Shown one piece after another: positions 13,662-55,521 of a DNA stretch of 64,000 bases. Source of the DNA: Parcubacteria group bacterium Gr01-1014_8. Lineage in GTDB: Bacteria; Patescibacteriota; Minisyncoccia; Phycocordibacterales; UBA2100. The stretch covers positions 64,001 to 128,000 of the forward strand of contig VMGC01000004.1 of NCBI GenBank assembly GCA_007376385.1. The letters run 5' to 3'. The translations under genes were made by a program, and so were the position numbers. Every line of letters starts with the position of its first letter. Positions within the stretch are counted from its first letter, which is position 1. The notes beneath the pieces are model-generated. The model searched no databases. It was not told the DNA's origin and was given only the letters and a program-made list of their open reading frames with translations.

Positions 13662-14573
13662 CTACAGCCATTTGCGCCGTTTGAAATACCACACCATAAG
13701 CGCGCCCGCAGTTGCGACTATGCCGACAATGATCCAGAAATCGTAGGGCAGACCTACGATCGGATTGGATCTCGCATTGATGTCGAAAATAGCAACGAAA
13801 AGCGAAAGAGGGAATGTAAGGAGTGCCATGATGGTAAGAACGCGCATTGTCTCGTTCTCTTTCGTCGAAAGAAGAGAGTTATTGGTTTCGCGCAATTCGT
13901 GGAGGACCTCTGTAAGTCTCATGACATGATTGTGTACTCGATAATATTCGTTCGACAAGGCGCGCAAATAACTGACGAATTCTTCTCCAAAGAACATCTG
14001 ACCGTCTTTATCGAGCGTGTGGAGTACGTCTCTGTGCGGTTCAATAGTTTGCCTTAAATTCAGCAGGTCTCTTGCGCTTCTTGAAAGCCGCTCGACCATG
14101 CCAACTTCGTGGCCGGAAAATATGTTCTCTTCAATATGCGAAAGGTCGCTTCGCACGAAATCAATTTCATGCTCAACGGCCTTATAGAGACGCTTGAGCA
14201 TGTAGTAAAAAAGAAAGCCGGCATGATCTCCCATGACGCTTTTATCAAGAATTGAATTCACTTCAAAAAGCTTGGAAAATGTATGCAGCGGGTCAATGGT
14301 GTCGTAGTGAGTAGTGATGATGAATGACTTGCCTATGACAAAATCTATTTCTTGCTCGATGGTTCTGTGCGTGTGTCGTAGAGCAGGGAAGTGGAGAATA
14401 GCGTAGATGTAATCGTTATAGAATTCGACTCGAGGTTTCGCAGTCGGTAGAAGAAGTTCTTCCGCGATAAGGTGGGCAAGGCCGAATTCATCCATAACAG
14501 CGCGGACCTCTTCGCGGGTAGGGGATTCGAGGTCTATCCACACGAGCGATGAATGCTCATGGCGTGACAACAT
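13662..14573 (-). CDS. CorA-family divalent cation transporter homolog with an atypical pore motif
   Basis: 303 aa. Cytoplasmic alpha/beta domain plus two C-terminal TM helices, 'LTFPLSLFVAIFDINARSNP...YFKRRKW'. The usual GMN motif is replaced by DIN. Confidence 0.65.
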   Translation of the reverse strand: MLSRHEHSSLVWIDLESPTREEVRAVMDEFGLAHLIAEELLLPTAKPRVEFYNDYIYAILHFPALRHTHRTIEQEIDFVIGKSFIITTHYDTIDPLHTFSKLFEVNSILDKSVMGDHAGFLFYYMLKRLYKAVEHEIDFVRSDLSHIEENIFSGHEVGMVERLSRSARDLLNLRQTIEPHRDVLHTLDKDGQMFFGEEFVSYLRALSNEYYRVHNHVMRLTEVLHELRETNNSLLSTKENETMRVLTIMALLTFPLSLFVAIFDINARSNPIVGLPYDFWIIVGIVATAGALMVWYFKRRKWL

Positions 14574-14636: not shown

Positions 14637-15887
14637 ATGTTATTTCAAAGAGAGGGTCAGCCGAGTGGAACTGTACGCTTCGGAACGGCATTCGCCATCG
14701 CACTTGTGGTGGGTGCGCTCGGCTTCACCGGGGGTATTTTTGCAGGTAATCGTACCTATGCGAATGGACCCCTGCTCGGCGACTCTCCGCCAGAAGGGGT
14801 CGACATGACCCCCGTATGGAAAGCGTGGCGCATCATTGATGAAAAATTCGTTCCCGCAGCCGTTGCTACCACGAGCATAGCTGCAGCATCAACAACCGAT
14901 GCGGAGCAAAGACGAGTCTGGGGCATGATCGAAGGACTGGCCAATTCATTGGACGATCCCTACACATATTTCATGCCGCCCGCAGAGCAAAAGCAATTTT
15001 CAGAGGACATGACTGGCGCATTCGAAGGAGTAGGGATGGAAATAGCCGTTCGAGACGAAGTGCTCGTTATCGTCTCGCCCCTTAAAGGCACGCCTGCTGA
15101 ACGGGCAGGACTTCGAGCAGGAGACAAGATATTGAAAATAGACGGCGATGACACGCGTGGCGTAGATATTACGTCTGCAGTCCAGCGCATCCGCGGACCA
15201 AAGGGAAGTACCGTTACTTTCTCTATATTTAGAGATGGATGGTCCGAACCCAAGGATGTACAAGTCGTACGCGACGTCATCAACGTCCCGATCGTCACGA
15301 CGGAAATAAAAGAGGGAGTCTTCGTTATTGAGGTGGCAAGCTTTACGGCAAATTCGCCAGGACTATTTCGAAATGCTCTTCGTGAATTTGTGGATTCAGG
15401 CACGTCGAGACTCATCATTGACCTTCGTGGAAATCCGGGAGGATATCTGGATGCCGCCGTGGACATGGCAAGTTGGTTCCTTCCTTCTGGAAAAATCGTG
15501 GTTGTGGAAGATTATGCTGGGCACGAGACCAATATAACGCATCGCTCGCGCGGCTATAACGTATTCAACGATAATTTGCGCATGGTCATTCTCGTTGATA
15601 AAGGCTCTGCATCCGCCTCTGAAATTCTCGCACTCGCGCTTAATAGCCACGGCAAGGCTCGGCTCATCGGTTCTCCTACCTTCGGCAAAGGTTCAGTCCA
15701 GGAGCTGATAGACATAACGCCTGATACGGGTTTGAAGCTCACGGTCGCGAGGTGGCTCGGGCCTAACGGAGAGCATATACCGCACTCTGGCATCATTCCC
15801 GACATTCAAGTTGAAAGAACTGAAGACGATATTAAAAGCGACAAGGACCCGCAGATTGATGCGGCTATCAAGGCAGTCAATGAGTAG
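14637..15887 (+). CDS. C-terminal processing peptidase (S41, Ctp/Prc family) with PDZ domain
   Basis: N-terminal TM anchor, PDZ 'GLRAGDKILKIDGDD', and catalytic region 'LVDKGSASASEI...TFGKGSVQ'. Confidence 0.8.
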   Translation: MLFQREGQPSGTVRFGTAFAIALVVGALGFTGGIFAGNRTYANGPLLGDSPPEGVDMTPVWKAWRIIDEKFVPAAVATTSIAAASTTDAEQRRVWGMIEGLANSLDDPYTYFMPPAEQKQFSEDMTGAFEGVGMEIAVRDEVLVIVSPLKGTPAERAGLRAGDKILKIDGDDTRGVDITSAVQRIRGPKGSTVTFSIFRDGWSEPKDVQVVRDVINVPIVTTEIKEGVFVIEVASFTANSPGLFRNALREFVDSGTSRLIIDLRGNPGGYLDAAVDMASWFLPSGKIVVVEDYAGHETNITHRSRGYNVFNDNLRMVILVDKGSASASEILALALNSHGKARLIGSPTFGKGSVQELIDITPDTGLKLTVARWLGPNGEHIPHSGIIPDIQVERTEDDIKSDKDPQIDAAIKAVNE

Positions 15888-15890
15888 CGT

Positions 15891-16032
15891 ATGCCCGCAC
15901 ACCAATGGTGGCATAATGTTTTTGTTGCAAATATACTATCTGACATGTATCCAGATTCGGAAACTCGTACTGCGACTACGGATAATATTCTGAAAACACG
16001 TGGCAACCATGCCACCATTGGTGTGCGGGTAT
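15891..16032 (+). repeat. 142-bp element bounded by a 24-bp near-perfect inverted repeat (ATGCCCGCACACCAATGGTGGCAT / ATGCCACCATTGGTGTGCGGGTAT); it encodes a 46-codon ORF whose TGA overlaps the rplI ATG
   Basis: Left arm 15891-15914 and right arm 16009-16032 match 23/24 as reverse complements. The internal ORF is [47 protein letters not shown]. Confidence 0.5.
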
Positions 16033-16480
16033 GAAGGTCATCATGCTTCGTGATGTCGCAGGTGTGGGACAAAAGGGAACCATAGCGCGCGTATCGGATG
16101 GCTATGCCATGAATTTTCTTATTCCTCAAAAATTTGCAGAAATGGCTACAGAAGAGAAGGTCAATGAGACGCATAAACGAAAAGCCGAAGCTGAAGCCAT
16201 GGTGGTGAAGCAGATGGCAGAATGGAAGGAGCAAGCAACACGGCTTGCTAATGCATCAGTGACAGTTCGCATGGAGGCAAATGAAAAGGGACAGCTGTAT
16301 AGTCAGATACCTCACGCCAAAATTCTTGAACGCATATCGAAGGAGCTCGGCATCAACGTTAAGGAGGAATGCCTGGTCGATGTAAGGCCGATAAAATCAC
16401 TCGGCCGTACTGAAATAGACCTTACGCTGGGCGGGAAACGGATCCCATTCACTGTTTTTGTGGAGAGAAAAGAGGATTAA
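16031..16480 (+). CDS. rplI: 50S ribosomal protein L9
   Basis: '[32 protein letters not shown]' matches the L9 N-domain consensus. Confidence 0.85.
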
Positions 16481-17163: not shown

Positions 17164-17190
17164 GAAACATAACGGGGGCAACTGTGCTTC

Positions 17191-17226
17191 GTACCATAAT
17201 GGTGCCGGTCGGCACCATTATGGTAC
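17191..17226. terminator. Perfect 16-bp-stem palindrome GTACCATAATGGTGCC-ggtc-GGCACCATTATGGTAC; likely an intergenic terminator/structural hairpin
   Basis: Seen in sequence 28 nt after the 16801-17163 stop. No clear U-tract follows. Confidence 0.35.
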
Positions 17227-17303
17227 GCATATAAATCAAAAGGAGACAGAAAATCCCCGAAACAAACACGACAGCTGGTATATCATGGGATATACTTATC
17301 GTC

Positions 17304-37813: not shown

Positions 37814-37917
37814 ATGGATCACTTTAAGGAATATCTTTCGAAACTCCGTGCATTAGCGCTGGTAATACTTCGTTATCTCATGCGTACCTCCCGTACTCCA
37901 GAACCCTCTACATCGCA

Positions 37918-38023
37918 GTATACCCCATGAGATAATATCGCAACAAGTGCAACAATGCTGTTGATAATTTGATGCATTTCGAGTTTGATGTGTACGTGAT
38001 TCATTCTATCTCACGGGGTATAC
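37918..38023. repeat. Intercistronic palindromic element, copy A, between dnaK and dnaJ: arms GTATACCCCATGAGATA / TATCTCACGGGGTATAC with a 72-nt spacer
   Basis: Left arm 37918-37934 and right arm 38007-38023 are reverse complements apart from one A/G. Confidence 0.55.
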
Positions 38024-40015: not shown

Positions 40016-40824
40016 TTGTGCAAGTCAGACTTGCACAAACATGACATATTTATGAGCTGTCGTCAAAATCCATTGCCAAACGGACAAATTCATTGTCAAA
40101 CGCATACACACCATTTAATACGTCCTTTGCTGAATTTAAGAATTTCCGTTCGTCGGTTTCAACGACCTCATCAAGAGCGTCGTAGTCGAGTATCTGGGAT
40201 CGCCGCGAGCCTAGAACGTCTATAAGGCTCGCGAATGGATATGCTCGTGCCTGCTGTAATGCCTCATCGTATTTCTGAAAAGCACTATCTAAGCCGCCGG
40301 GGAATCTCTCGAACGGATTTTTGACGGTAATGTATGCAAGTAAATATTGCAGATATTCATCATCATGGACGGTGCGAGCTTTGTACGAACTCTGAAACAG
40401 AGTTCCCTCTTCGCTGTACTTGGCGTTGAAATATGCTGCCATACTCGTGCATAGTCTCTGCATAAAAGCGCTGATACCATTTTCTACGTTCTCGCGTACG
40501 AGCAAATGGAAGTGATTATCCATAAGACAGAACGCTAAGATTGACACGTATGGCTTTTGCTTTCGCCAATGTTCAGGACGTGAAAATCCGGCACGAATAT
40601 TGTCTGGGCCGATATCGCGCTCCCAATTCCGCGGCGTGTTGTCGTCGTTTAGGTAACGTAGGAGTTTAAGAAATCGCCACCGGTCGTCATCGTCTCGGAT
40701 TATGCTCATGCCGCGTGTACCTCTCTTCATTACATGCACGTACGAGCCGACGGAATACGGTTCTCTTCTCATACTTGACAGATTACATTATTCTTCTGCA
40801 CTTGTGCAAGTCAGACTTGCACAA
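40016..40824 (-). mobile_element. IS200/IS605- or RAYT-like element: Y1 (HUH) transposase flanked by two direct copies of a 23-bp hairpin TTGTGCAAGTCAGACTTGCACAA
   Basis: Hairpins at 40016-40038 and 40802-40824 have 11-bp palindromic arms, and each is followed by CATGAC. The insertion splits grpE from dnaK. Confidence 0.6.
40050..40772 (-). CDS. HUH-Y1 single-strand transposase (IS200/IS605 TnpA / REP-associated tyrosine transposase-like)
   Basis: 'YVHVMKRG...RWRFLKLL' parallels the N-terminal beta-strands of TnpA. 'FCLMDNHFHLLV' is the HUH motif, and 'GTLFQSSYKART' carries the candidate catalytic Tyr. Confidence 0.55.
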   Translation of the reverse strand: MRREPYSVGSYVHVMKRGTRGMSIIRDDDDRWRFLKLLRYLNDDNTPRNWERDIGPDNIRAGFSRPEHWRKQKPYVSILAFCLMDNHFHLLVRENVENGISAFMQRLCTSMAAYFNAKYSEEGTLFQSSYKARTVHDDEYLQYLLAYITVKNPFERFPGGLDSAFQKYDEALQQARAYPFASLIDVLGSRRSQILDYDALDEVVETDERKFLNSAKDVLNGVYAFDNEFVRLAMDFDDSS

Positions 40825-54540: not shown

Positions 54541-54548
54541 GCACGCAT

Positions 54549-54654
54549 TATACCCCATGAGATAGATCTCAAGATATGCATTCTGAATCAAATCATTCGC
54601 AGACGGATTTCTAAAACATCAAGTCAGAGAATGTATCTCACGGGGTTATATACC
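54549..54654. repeat. Intercistronic palindromic element, copy B: arms TATACCCCATGAGATA / TATCTCACGGGGTTATATACC with a 69-nt spacer
   Basis: Arms at 54549-54564 and 54634-54654. The right arm overlaps the stop of the Cas4-like gene. Confidence 0.55.
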
Positions 54655-55443: not shown

Positions 55444-55450
55444 GGGACGA

Positions 55451-55521
55451 GTATACCCCGTGAGATCAAGAAATCTAAATATTTCGAACGACGTATGGGA
55501 ACTTATCTCACGGAATATACC
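55451..55521. repeat. Intercistronic palindromic element, copy C: arms GTATACCCCGTGAGAT / TTATCTCACGGAATATACC with a 36-nt spacer
   Basis: Arms at 55451-55466 and 55503-55521, immediately upstream of the Cas4-like gene start. Confidence 0.5.

What the first reader, a model, noticed from the sequence alone, without database searches (positions are those of the whole stretch)
15891..16032. 24-bp near-perfect inverted repeats frame a 142-bp element that carries the rplI start codon and a 46-codon overlapping uORF
What I see directly: ATGCCCGCACACCAATGGTGGCAT (15891-15914) and its reverse complement (16009-16032, one mismatch) lie just after the ctp stop. The terminal AT of the right arm plus a G form the rplI ATG. 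The left arm's ATG opens a 46-codon frame whose TGA again overlaps the rplI ATG as ATGA. The inner core CACCAATGGTG is itself palindromic, and a related ACCAWWATGGTG core occurs in the perfect hairpin at 17191-17226. Inference: this could be a long RNA hairpin sequestering the rplI initiation region (a leader or attenuator). It could be a second MITE-like family, or an operator for a palindrome-binding regulator.
Basis: seen in the sequence. Interest (0 to 1): 0.5.

Follow-up and report, generated by a model that had tools for sequence, protein, structure and literature searches.

The report
Palindromic mobile element at start codons
The inverted repeat is real: it is one copy of an apparently undescribed family of ~140-bp hairpin-forming mobile elements in Kaiserbacteria (candidate phyla radiation) that insert exactly at gene start codons and seem built so that the gene is still translated.

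Summary
Observation confirmed. A perfect 21-bp inverted repeat (15894-15914 / 16009-16029) is flanked by a 4-bp direct repeat TATG (15890-15893 / 16030-16033). The right ATG is the rplI start. The left ATG opens a 47-codon ORF whose TGA overlaps that start.

It is not an rplI leader or an operator. The closest relatives have ctp and rplI overlapping or abutting, with nothing between them. A search with the termini found 60 groundwater metagenome loci, all named hosts being Ca. Kaiserbacteria or Paceibacterota. They hold 132-150-nt elements with the same ends.

About 80% of copies sit so that their last ATG is the start codon of a long gene. These genes are diverse housekeeping genes (gyrA, glyS, atpA, atpG, murB, mraY, tkt and others). 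Orientation is fixed, and the elements are flanked by YATG(A) repeats.

Empty/filled site pairs, tandem copies and near-identical copies before different genes show mobility. Stem positions 14-25 covary.

Reading frames through the element that end 12 nt before or 1 nt after the gene's ATG are kept open far more often than in controls. I infer, untested, a ribosome relay by termination-reinitiation that keeps the gene expressed. The mobilising enzyme is unknown. No description was found in Rfam or the searchable literature.

The parts
14637..15887 (+). Upstream gene ctp (PDZ + S41 peptidase). Its stop TAG is at 15885-15887, 3 nt before the left ATG.
15890..15893 (+). Left copy of the duplicated target TATG. 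Its ATG (15891-15893) opens the through-ORF.
   Evidence: empty/filled pairs elsewhere show duplication of YATG or YATGA
15894..15914 (+). Left arm, 21 nt, perfectly complementary to the right arm. 15894-15902 (CCCGCACAC) is the terminus used to find the family. 15903-15914 lies in the region that covaries between copies.
15915..16008 (+). Variable interior, 94 nt, most like the 'TTTGTTGCA...AAAACA' subfamily (L035, L038, L047, L050, L060). It contains a promoter-like GTGGCA-18 nt-TATACT (ending at 15937), followed 7 nt later by an in-frame ATG at 15945.
16009..16029 (+). Right arm, 21 nt.
16030..16033 (+). Right copy of the duplicated TATG. Its ATG (16031-16033) is the rplI start codon.
   Evidence: the empty site in L018 reads cTATGAaag
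15891..16034 (+). 47-codon ORF running through the whole element. Its stop TGA (16032-16034) overlaps the rplI ATG. This is the inferred ribosome relay.
16031..16480 (+). rplI (ribosomal protein L9), the host gene whose start codon was the insertion target.

Best explanation
The 142-bp feature is one copy of a family of small, non-coding, hairpin-forming mobile elements (MITE- or REPIN-like) of Ca. Kaiserbacteria.

Shown: the elements insert precisely at start codons. They duplicate the 4-5 bp YATG(A), so one ATG ends up at each end of the element. In this window the element split a formerly overlapping or abutting ctp-rplI junction.

Inferred: the left ATG keeps the gene's original initiation context. 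That context is either the stop codon of the upstream gene or a leaderless promoter with a -10 box 6 nt upstream. Ribosomes that start at the left ATG, or at a conserved internal ATG about 32 nt in, translate through the element and so melt the 25-bp stem. They terminate either at a TAG 12 nt before the gene's ATG or at a TGA overlapping it (ATGA), and then reinitiate on the host gene.

In the window copy a T-to-C change removed the usual fifth-codon stop (TAA became CAA). A single 47-codon ORF therefore links the ctp stop (3 nt upstream) to the rplI ATG.

The enzyme that moves the element is not identified. My best guess is a single-strand, hairpin-recognising HUH/Y1 transposase. An IS200-like Y1 gene lies at 40050-40772 in this window.
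For: FAMILY AND MOBILITY (shown).
- The paired-terminus pattern gave 60 metagenome loci, 53 distinct copies of 132-150 nt.
- A covariance model found further diverged copies and a subfamily with other termini (CCCGGTAGGAC...) but the same TATG(A) flanks.
- Empty sites. L018 (L9 74% identical) has ctp and rplI overlapping as cTATGAaa, and L021 (65%) has TGAcATG.
- L063 is filled twice where L094 is empty twice. The junctions read ggggg-CATGA-[element]-CATGA-gcatg and cact-TATG-[element]-TATG.
- L030 has two copies, while loci with at least 90%-identical transketolase have none.
- L031 has a tandem pair where L043 has one copy. L058 and L080 differ at 2 of 140 nt, yet sit before two different genes on one 5.1-kb contig.
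- The flanking Y agrees left and right in 43 of 50 copies, and never as left T with right C. An extra A on the left is matched on the right in 5 of 5 cases.

START-CODON POSITION (shown).
- The terminal ATG starts an ORF of at least 100 codons, or one that runs off the contig, in about 80% of distinct copies.
- In 19 of 20 downstream proteins tested, Pfam domains begin within the first ~30 residues. The proteins are diverse: transketolase, GyrA, MurB, PurB, GlyRS, AtpG, AtpA, MraY, PilB-like, AspRS/LysRS-type, FtsW, GT2, an ABC ATPase, GreA, HisIE, AroQ, DegT, LeuA and LeuD.
- The orientation of the interior relative to the gene is constant.

HAIRPIN (shown).
- The stem is 25 bp. 12 of its pairs show double compensatory changes, and 565 of 600 cells in positions 14-25 are Watson-Crick.

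RELAY (comparative support only).
- Codon 5 after the left ATG is a stop in 34 of 47 copies. Where it is not, that frame stays open across the interior in 9 of 13 copies, against 5 of 34 (p = 6e-4).
- 26 of 53 copies have an ORF ending exactly at +1, as ATGA.
- The frame ending at +1 is open for at least 25 codons in 35 of 53 copies. This compares with 12-13 of 53 in the antisense frames and 11.9 +/- 3.1 in interior shuffles, maximum 23. The frame ending at -12 is open in 22, against 10.6 +/- 2.8. The frame that would run into the gene out of frame is not enriched (17 against 11.5).
- Copies at genes keep such an open frame in 39 of 46 cases, against 7 of 15 for copies not at genes.
- The upstream gene's stop lies between -4 and +9 nt of the left ATG in about 19 of 54 copies.
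- These genomes use leaderless-type starts. TAnnnT peaks exactly 6 nt before the ATG in 9 of 43 window genes and 35 of 231 locus genes. Several left flanks carry this signal.
Against: - No transcript, ribosome or protein data exist. The relay is inferred from reading-frame statistics on copies that share ancestry, so the p-values overstate independence.
- About 15% of gene-associated copies lack a long open frame.
- Only one copy is seen in the 64 kb of this genome. Repetition within this genome is therefore not shown.
- No autonomous partner with these termini was found in about 0.6 Mb of held sequence.
- The Y1 genes found are flanked by their own, unrelated 23-nt palindromes.
- Mismatches in the stem show no G.T excess over A.C (11 against 13). 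Pairing is therefore not demonstrably selected at the level of the sense RNA.
- Direct repeats of both 4 and 5 bp are unusual for one transposase.
- Some diverged copies have no ATG flanks and no direct repeat.
- Enrichment at start codons could owe much to purifying selection, and to the ATG required by my search pattern.
Confidence: 0.6

Rival explanations
1. A purely selfish MITE with no translational relay. The downstream gene is expressed because the right arm supplies a -10-like box at leaderless spacing (TAGTGT or TACTAA, then 6 nt, then ATG), so a new leaderless mRNA starts at the right ATG. Alternatively RNase III cuts the long stem. On this view the open frames reflect shared ancestry.
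For: - TAnnnT lies exactly 6 nt before the terminal ATG in 41 of 54 copies. This is the same geometry as native gene starts in these genomes.
- RNase III, and YchF (said to promote leaderless translation), are reported as retained in CPR (PMC12641178).
- The frame statistics are not phylogenetically independent.
Against: - Read from the subfamily-A alignment, the right arm matches the sigma-70 consensus in only 7 of 12 positions (TCGGCA-17 nt-TAGTGT).
- The promoter scan did not call the right arm in the window copy, whose hexamer is TGGTGT and lacks the key A at -11.
- The same box on the left arm would fire outward.
- This view does not explain why the frames ending at -12 and +1 are open while the third frame and the antisense frames are not. 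It also does not explain why gene-less copies lose the open frame.
Confidence: 0.25
2. A REPIN- or PATE-like element moved as a single-stranded DNA hairpin by an IS200-like/RAYT-like Y1 (HUH) transposase. It inserts in one orientation immediately 3' of YATG(A) and carries its own YATG(A) at its 3' end, so the 'duplication' is not a staggered-cut target site duplication. This concerns how the element moves and is compatible with the best explanation.
For: - Fixed orientation and an invariant short target.
- The left and right YATG(A) co-vary in sequence and length.
- Pairing is conserved through compensatory changes with no G.T bias, as expected for a DNA hairpin.
- Y1_Tnp genes occur in the window (40050-40772; Pfam 44 bits against a cutoff of 23) and in two element-bearing loci, L063 and L074.
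Against: - Each Y1 gene is flanked by its own 23-nt palindromes, which are unrelated to the element arms.
- The NCBIfam RAYT model scores below its cutoff (35 against 80).
- L094 carries the same Y1 gene as L063 but no element in 10.8 kb.
- IS200/IS605 ends are separate subterminal hairpins, not one long terminal inverted repeat.
Confidence: 0.3
3. A gene-specific rplI (L9) leader or attenuator hairpin that sequesters the initiation region for autoregulation.
For: The start codon lies at the base of a -62 kcal/mol hairpin.
Against: - It is absent from the two closest relatives at the same junction.
- The same element sits before about 40 unrelated genes.
- There is no Rfam match.
Confidence: 0.02
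4. An operator pair for a regulator that binds the CACCAATGGTG-type palindrome, shared with the hairpin at 17190-17227.
For: The core is palindromic and occurs twice, against 0.1 expected.
Against: - The two occurrences are simply the two arms.
- The core lies in the copy-specific, covarying part of the arms.
- The hairpin at 17190 is not recognised by the family model and is absent in relatives.
Confidence: 0.02

Closest known systems
Bacterial MITEs that form transcribed hairpins (Neisseria Correia elements, enterobacterial ERIC/IRU, Yersinia YPAL). Comparison from my own knowledge.
   Same: Size of 100-170 bp. Terminal inverted repeats folding into one long hairpin. Short flanking direct repeat. 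No transposase gene. Located in transcribed inter-gene space. Compensatory changes keep the stem.
   Different: Those elements insert at TA or at loosely defined intergenic sites, in either orientation and at variable distance from genes. This family sits exactly on the start codon, duplicates YATG(A), has one orientation relative to the gene, and keeps an internal reading frame that ends at the gene's ATG.
REPIN/REP sequences with RAYT (Y1) transposases, and IS200/IS605-derived PATEs. Comparison from my own knowledge.
   Same: A hairpin of about 100-150 nt with conserved ends and a variable middle. Structure kept by compensatory change. Target-specific, oriented insertion would fit ssDNA HUH chemistry. 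Y1 genes are present in these genomes.
   Different: The arms are not themselves REP-like short palindromes. The Y1 genes are flanked by other palindromes. REPINs are extragenic without a fixed relation to start codons.
Rickettsia palindromic elements (RPE). Comparison from my own knowledge.
   Same: Palindromic mobile elements of about 100-150 bp in a reduced genome. They are tolerated in or at coding sequence because translation is preserved.
   Different: RPEs insert in frame inside ORFs and become part of the protein. Here the element stays outside the protein: an in-frame TAG at -12 blocks N-terminal extension in most copies, and it appears to hand ribosomes on by termination-reinitiation.
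Short ORFs in integron attI sites (ORF-11 and similar) that enhance translation of the downstream cassette by coupling. The review PMC8876359 was listed; the mechanism is from my own knowledge.
   Same: A mobile-element-borne mini-ORF whose translation delivers ribosomes to a downstream gene that lacks its own initiation signal. Hairpin-forming recombination sites (attC) must also be unwound by ribosomes.
   Different: Integron ORFs are part of a fixed platform, not of a dispersed 140-bp element. They involve no start-codon duplication.

Membership tests
MITE (miniature inverted-repeat transposable element) | Small (below about 500 bp) and without a transposase gene | tested here: met
   132-150 nt. 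The only ORFs are 4-48 codons and are not conserved as peptides.
MITE | Terminal inverted repeats | tested here: met
   21 bp perfect in the window. 25-bp consensus stem in 50 copies.
MITE | Target site duplication, shown by comparing empty and filled sites | tested here: met
   L094 (empty) against L063 (filled) shows CATGA and TATG present once against twice. Window against L018 and L021. The length is 4 or 5 bp. An 'insert 3' of target' mechanism without true duplication cannot be excluded.
MITE | Multiple dispersed copies within a genome | tested here: inconclusive
   3 copies in the 6.4-kb L081. 2 near-identical copies on one 5.1-kb contig. Only 1 copy in the 64-kb window. The rest of the source genome was not available.
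MITE | A related autonomous element with the same termini | tested here: not met
   No long element bounded by these termini in about 0.6 Mb of held loci. The collection scans were exhausted.
REPIN / REP-RAYT system | The RAYT (Y1) gene is flanked by the same repeat that is dispersed | tested here: not met
   The Y1 genes are flanked by unrelated 23-nt palindromes.
REPIN / REP-RAYT system | Two inverted short palindromic REPs forming a long hairpin, with the structure kept by compensation | tested here: inconclusive
   The long hairpin and the compensation are met. The arms are not consistently self-palindromic; this is my reading.
IS200/IS605-type PATE | Oriented insertion 3' of a fixed tetra- or pentanucleotide | tested here: met
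   YATG(A) is always at the left. Orientation is fixed.
IS200/IS605-type PATE | No terminal inverted repeats; separate subterminal hairpins at each end | tested here: not met
   The ends pair with each other over 25 bp.
Ribosomal-protein leader / Rfam cis-regulatory RNA | Conserved upstream of the same gene in relatives; matches a curated model | tested here: not met
   Absent in L018 and L021. No Rfam hit at E <= 10 in the window region or E <= 1 in L081.

The most novel reading that the evidence does not exclude
This is a new class of selfish DNA that is specific for start codons and is 'translationally transparent'. It duplicates the ATG, keeps the gene's original initiation signal (leaderless 5' end or upstream stop codon) on its left copy, and carries its own relay ORF that unwinds its hairpin and re-delivers the ribosome to the right ATG. 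It can therefore sit on essential genes (gyrA, atpA, glyS, murB) in minimal CPR genomes. It may move as an ssDNA hairpin by HUH chemistry, with precise excision. Even more speculatively, the two ATGs juxtaposed at the base of the stem could allow direct transfer of the initiating ribosome across the hairpin.
Probability: 0.4. Interest if true: 0.85.

Novelty: new variant of a known kind. Interest (0 to 1): 0.72.

Why it matters
If correct, this shows that the start codon itself can be a safe harbour for mobile DNA. It would also give a natural example of a portable cassette that preserves expression of any gene it lands on by termination-reinitiation, whether that gene is leaderless or translationally coupled.

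It bears on three matters.
- How translation starts in CPR bacteria. The data here show a strong -10 box at 6 nt before the ATG, which implies widespread leaderless mRNAs.
- Genome annotation of CPR metagenome-assembled genomes. Spurious small ORFs arise, such as the 33-aa gene called from the left CAT in L023, and contigs break inside the element, as in L003.
- Strain-level variation and recombination in Kaiserbacteria.

The element could also inspire synthetic insulator or coupling cassettes.

Tried and rejected
- The exact 19-mer arm in genome contigs gave 14 single, unpaired hits inside GC-rich genomes. These are chance or coding matches, not elements.
- The exact 21-mer arm in metagenome contigs gave 0 hits. 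The window-specific part of the arm is too variable. Only the shared 12-nt termini found the family.
- Viral contigs gave 0 hits, and plasmids gave no match.
- Rfam gave nothing relevant.
- Literature searches for MITEs at start codons, CPR MITEs, the terminal sequence, Kaiserbacteria repeats and leaderless Patescibacteria found no description.
- I looked for a sense-strand RNA signature in the stem (G.U excess over A.C) and found none: 11 against 13.
- I considered a conserved structured ncRNA in the interior. Within subfamily A there is no consensus structure beyond the 25+3-bp stem.
- I considered a conserved peptide. The peptides share only the arm-encoded C-terminus.
- I tested for enrichment of A after the ATG, which would favour ATGA. 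It was 57% against 43%, p = 0.07, not significant.
- I considered the right arm as a promoter. The match is weak, 7 of 12 by my reading, and the scan did not call it in the window copy.
- I looked for a link between the element and the hairpin at 17190-17227 and rejected it.

Full report
OBSERVATION. The arms are 15891-15914 and 16009-16032, 24 nt long, with one mismatch and 94 nt between them. Nothing comparable occurs elsewhere in the window, and chance expectation is zero. The ctp gene (PDZ + S41 peptidase) ends with TAG at 15885-15887, and rplI (L9) starts at 16031. The ORF from the left ATG has 47 sense codons, and its TGA overlaps the rplI ATG. Either strand folds into one long hairpin of about -62 kcal/mol, z about -6.

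Reading the ends closely, the perfect inverted repeat is 21 bp (15894-15914 / 16009-16029). It is flanked on both sides by the same four bases in direct orientation: TATG at 15890-15893 and at 16030-16033. Removing the element and one TATG gives ...GAGTAGCGTATGAAGGTC..., that is ctp stop, 3 nt, rplI start.

IT IS AN INSERTION. The source is a 'Parcubacteria group bacterium Gr01-1014_8' (name attached to the identical L9). Identical copies of the locus occur in two other assemblies. The two closest L9 relatives keep the same gene order but have no spacer. L018 (74% identical) reads ...caacTATGAaagtc, with the ctp TGA overlapping the rplI ATG. L021 (65%) reads TGAcATG. A third relative, L023 (60%), has an unrelated 133-nt spacer there. 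About 1.4 kb upstream, however, directly before ctp, it carries a 142-nt element. That element has the same 12-nt termini, the same 118-nt distance between them, and its terminal AT+G again forms the start codon.

THE FAMILY. The window-specific arm found nothing meaningful in public collections. The shared termini, ATGCCCGCACAC-N(103-133)-GTGTGCGGGYAT, found 60 metagenome loci from aquifer and groundwater samples. These hold 53 distinct elements of 132-150 nt. Proteins encoded next to them are, where named, from Ca. Kaiserbacteria or Ca. Paceibacterota. A covariance model built on 50 copies recovered all of them. It also found diverged copies, up to three per 6.4 kb (L081), and a subfamily with different termini (TATG(A)CCCGGTAGGAC...GTACTAACCGGGTATG). 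The window holds only the one copy. There is no Rfam family, no plasmid or viral match, and no description in the searchable literature.

POSITION AND ORIENTATION. The search pattern did not require the base after the terminal AT. It is G in 66 of 69 matches, and in about four fifths of distinct copies that ATG opens an ORF of at least 100 codons or one that runs off the contig. Twenty such proteins were scanned and 19 have Pfam domains that begin within the first ~30 residues. They are unrelated housekeeping functions: transketolase N and C, GyrA, MurB, PurB, GlyRS, AtpG, AtpA, MraY, a PilB-like ATPase, a class II tRNA synthetase, FtsW, GT2, an ABC ATPase, GreA, HisIE, AroQ, DegT, LeuA and LeuD. 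The interior always has the same orientation relative to the gene. The base before the left ATG is a pyrimidine in 50 of 50 copies, against 74% of ordinary genes.

MOBILITY AND TARGET DUPLICATION. Four observations bear on this.
- L063 and L094 are strains whose sequence is 99% identical on one side. L063 has two elements where L094 has none. The empty sites read gggggCATGAgcatg and cactTATGAaca. The filled sites read ggggg-CATGA-[CCCGG...CCGGG]-CATGA-gcatg and cact-TATG-[CCCGCACAC...GTGTGCGGG]-TATG-agc.
- L030 has elements at the starts of both transketolase genes. Loci encoding at least 90%-identical transketolase have the two genes overlapping and no element within about 20 kb.
- L031 has two tandem copies sharing a TATG where L043 has one copy. 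L058 and L080 are two copies that differ at 2 of 140 nt but precede different genes on one 5.1-kb contig.
- The left and right Y agree in 43 of 50 copies, and left T with right C never occurs. When the left flank is TATGA-CCCG, the right flank is also TATGA, in 5 of 5 cases.

The duplicated unit is thus YATG or YATGA, and it always contains the start codon. At overlapping junctions (ATGA) the 5-bp duplication preserves both the upstream stop, in the left copy, and the downstream start, in the right copy.

THE HAIRPIN. The consensus stem is 25 bp. Positions 5-13 were fixed by the search. Positions 14-25 differ between copies but remain paired. 565 of 600 cells are Watson-Crick, and 12 pairs show double changes. 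G.T (11) and A.C (13) mismatches are equally frequent. Pairing is therefore selected, but not demonstrably in the sense RNA. A DNA hairpin would fit equally well or better. The 17190-17227 hairpin is unrelated.

HOW THE HOST GENE CAN STILL BE EXPRESSED (INFERENCE). These genomes have a strong signal for leaderless starts. TAnnnT peaks exactly 6 nt upstream of the ATG in 9 of 43 window genes and 35 of 231 genes in the loci, against 1-2 and about 6 at other spacings. Many other genes are tightly coupled to the upstream gene. Insertion at the ATG with duplication leaves the original signal attached to the left ATG. That signal is a -10 box in some copies. In about 19 of 54 copies it is an upstream stop codon lying within -4 to +9 nt.

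Several regularities follow downstream of the left ATG.
- Most copies read ATG CCC GCA CAC TAA, a 4-codon mini-ORF (34 of 47 copies).
- Where codon 5 is not a stop, that frame tends to stay open through the whole interior, in 9 of 13 copies against 5 of 34.
- The largest subfamily has a conserved internal ATG (YTTATGAA, about 32 nt in). It opens a 34-36-codon ORF.
- In 26 of 53 copies an ORF ends with a TGA overlapping the gene's ATG. In many others it ends at the arm's TAG 12 nt upstream.
- The frame ending at +1 is open for at least 25 codons in 35 of 53 copies. This compares with 12-13 of 53 in antisense frames and 11.9 +/- 3.1 in interior shuffles, maximum 23 of 53 in any of 500 shuffles.
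- The frame ending at -12 is also enriched (22 against 10.6). The frame that would run out of frame into the gene is not (17 against 11.5).
- Copies that precede genes keep such a frame in 39 of 46 cases, against 7 of 15 for copies that do not.
- The peptides are not conserved apart from the arm-encoded C-terminus. The interior has no conserved RNA structure.

The simplest reading is that what matters is the act of translating through the element. Ribosomes load at the left or internal ATG, unwind the stem, terminate next to the gene's ATG and reinitiate.

The window copy is the single-ORF variant. The usual TAA is CAA, compensated by G in the right arm. The ORF starts 3 nt after the ctp stop and ends as ATGA on rplI. 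The copy also contains an internal TATACT-7 nt-ATG (15932-15947) in the same frame. All of this is comparative inference. The copies are related, so the statistics are not independent, and no expression data exist.

ALTERNATIVES. The right arm carries TAGTGT (or TACTAA) exactly 6 nt before the ATG in 41 of 54 copies. It could therefore act as a leaderless promoter. However, by my reading of the alignment it matches the sigma-70 consensus in only 7 of 12 positions. The window copy has TGGTGT there, and the promoter scan did not call it. RNase III processing of the stem is possible, since RNase III is reported as retained in CPR (PMC12641178).

How the element moves is open. No long version with these termini was found. 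IS200-like/RAYT-like Y1 transposase genes occur in the window (40050-40772) and in two element-bearing loci. The fixed orientation, the fixed short target and the structure-not-sequence conservation fit ssDNA HUH chemistry. Against this, each Y1 gene is flanked by its own unrelated 23-nt palindromes.

VERDICT. The gene-specific leader and operator readings are rejected. The MITE-like reading is supported and sharpened into a start-codon-specific, hairpin-forming mobile element family of Kaiserbacteria, with a probable built-in translational relay. As far as I could check it is undescribed. I class it as a new variant of a known kind.

Noticed in passing
window 40016-40824: An IS200-like unit. 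A 240-aa Y1 (HUH) transposase gene lies at 40050-40772 on the minus strand (Pfam Y1_Tnp 44 bits; best NCBIfam model 'REP-associated tyrosine transposase', below its cutoff). It is flanked on both sides by the identical 23-nt palindrome TTGTGCAAGTCAGACTTGCACAA (40016-40038 and 40802-40824). These are the only two copies in the window. Homologues in L063/L094 and L074 are flanked by other 23-nt palindromes.
   Followed up: partly
window, gene starts throughout (e.g. 1061, 13662-14573 minus strand, 16801, 26543, 51194, 54646, 55658, 59621): Leaderless-type gene starts. A -10-like TAnnnT (TAGAAT, TATACT, TACAAT...) lies exactly 6 nt before the ATG in 9 of 43 genes, with 5 more at 7 nt. The same peak appears in 35 of 231 genes of the related loci.
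   Followed up: partly
window 17190-17227: A perfect 18-bp hairpin with a 2-nt loop (CGTACCATAATGGTGCCG/CGGCACCATTATGGTACG) lies between the 120-aa gene and the RNase T-like gene. It has no T-run after it. It is not conserved at the same place in L018, L021 or L023 and is not related to the element family.
   Followed up: partly
L023 3877-3976 and 2410-2445: A different palindromic insert occupies the same ctp-rplI junction in a relative. It is 133 nt long, with arms built from AAGTATCAAG / CTTGATACTT repeats. Similar AAGTATCAAG repeats lie upstream of ctp. This may be a second small repeat family.
   Followed up: no
L063 1-5187 vs L094: Sequence identity between the two strains drops from 99% to 83-86% exactly at the two element insertion sites. 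This suggests a recombination boundary or an exchanged segment bounded by the elements.
   Followed up: no
L003 1-60: A 1-kb assembly contig begins inside the element, 59 nt before the rplI ATG. This fits assemblers breaking at this repeat or hairpin.
   Followed up: no
L074 8070-11729 (minus strand): The GyrA gene downstream of one element copy is 1220 aa and contains an intein splicing domain at residues 128-512.
   Followed up: no
L050 4589-4891: A roughly 300-bp element on the minus strand with family-type termini (CCCAGACAC...GTGTCTGGG) flanked by TATG/TATG. It is twice the usual length and may be a composite or carry an internal insertion.
   Followed up: no
window 37914-37934, 54544-54564, 55447-55467: Three copies of a 21-nt motif, CGCAGTATACCCCATGAGATA. 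On the other strand it reads ...CTCATGGGGTATAMTGCG, so it looks like a shared promoter or start region rather than a mobile repeat.
   Followed up: no
L023 2389-2490 (minus strand): A 33-aa gene was called starting from the CAT at the left end of the element. This is probably an annotation artefact created by the duplicated ATG palindrome CATG.
   Followed up: no
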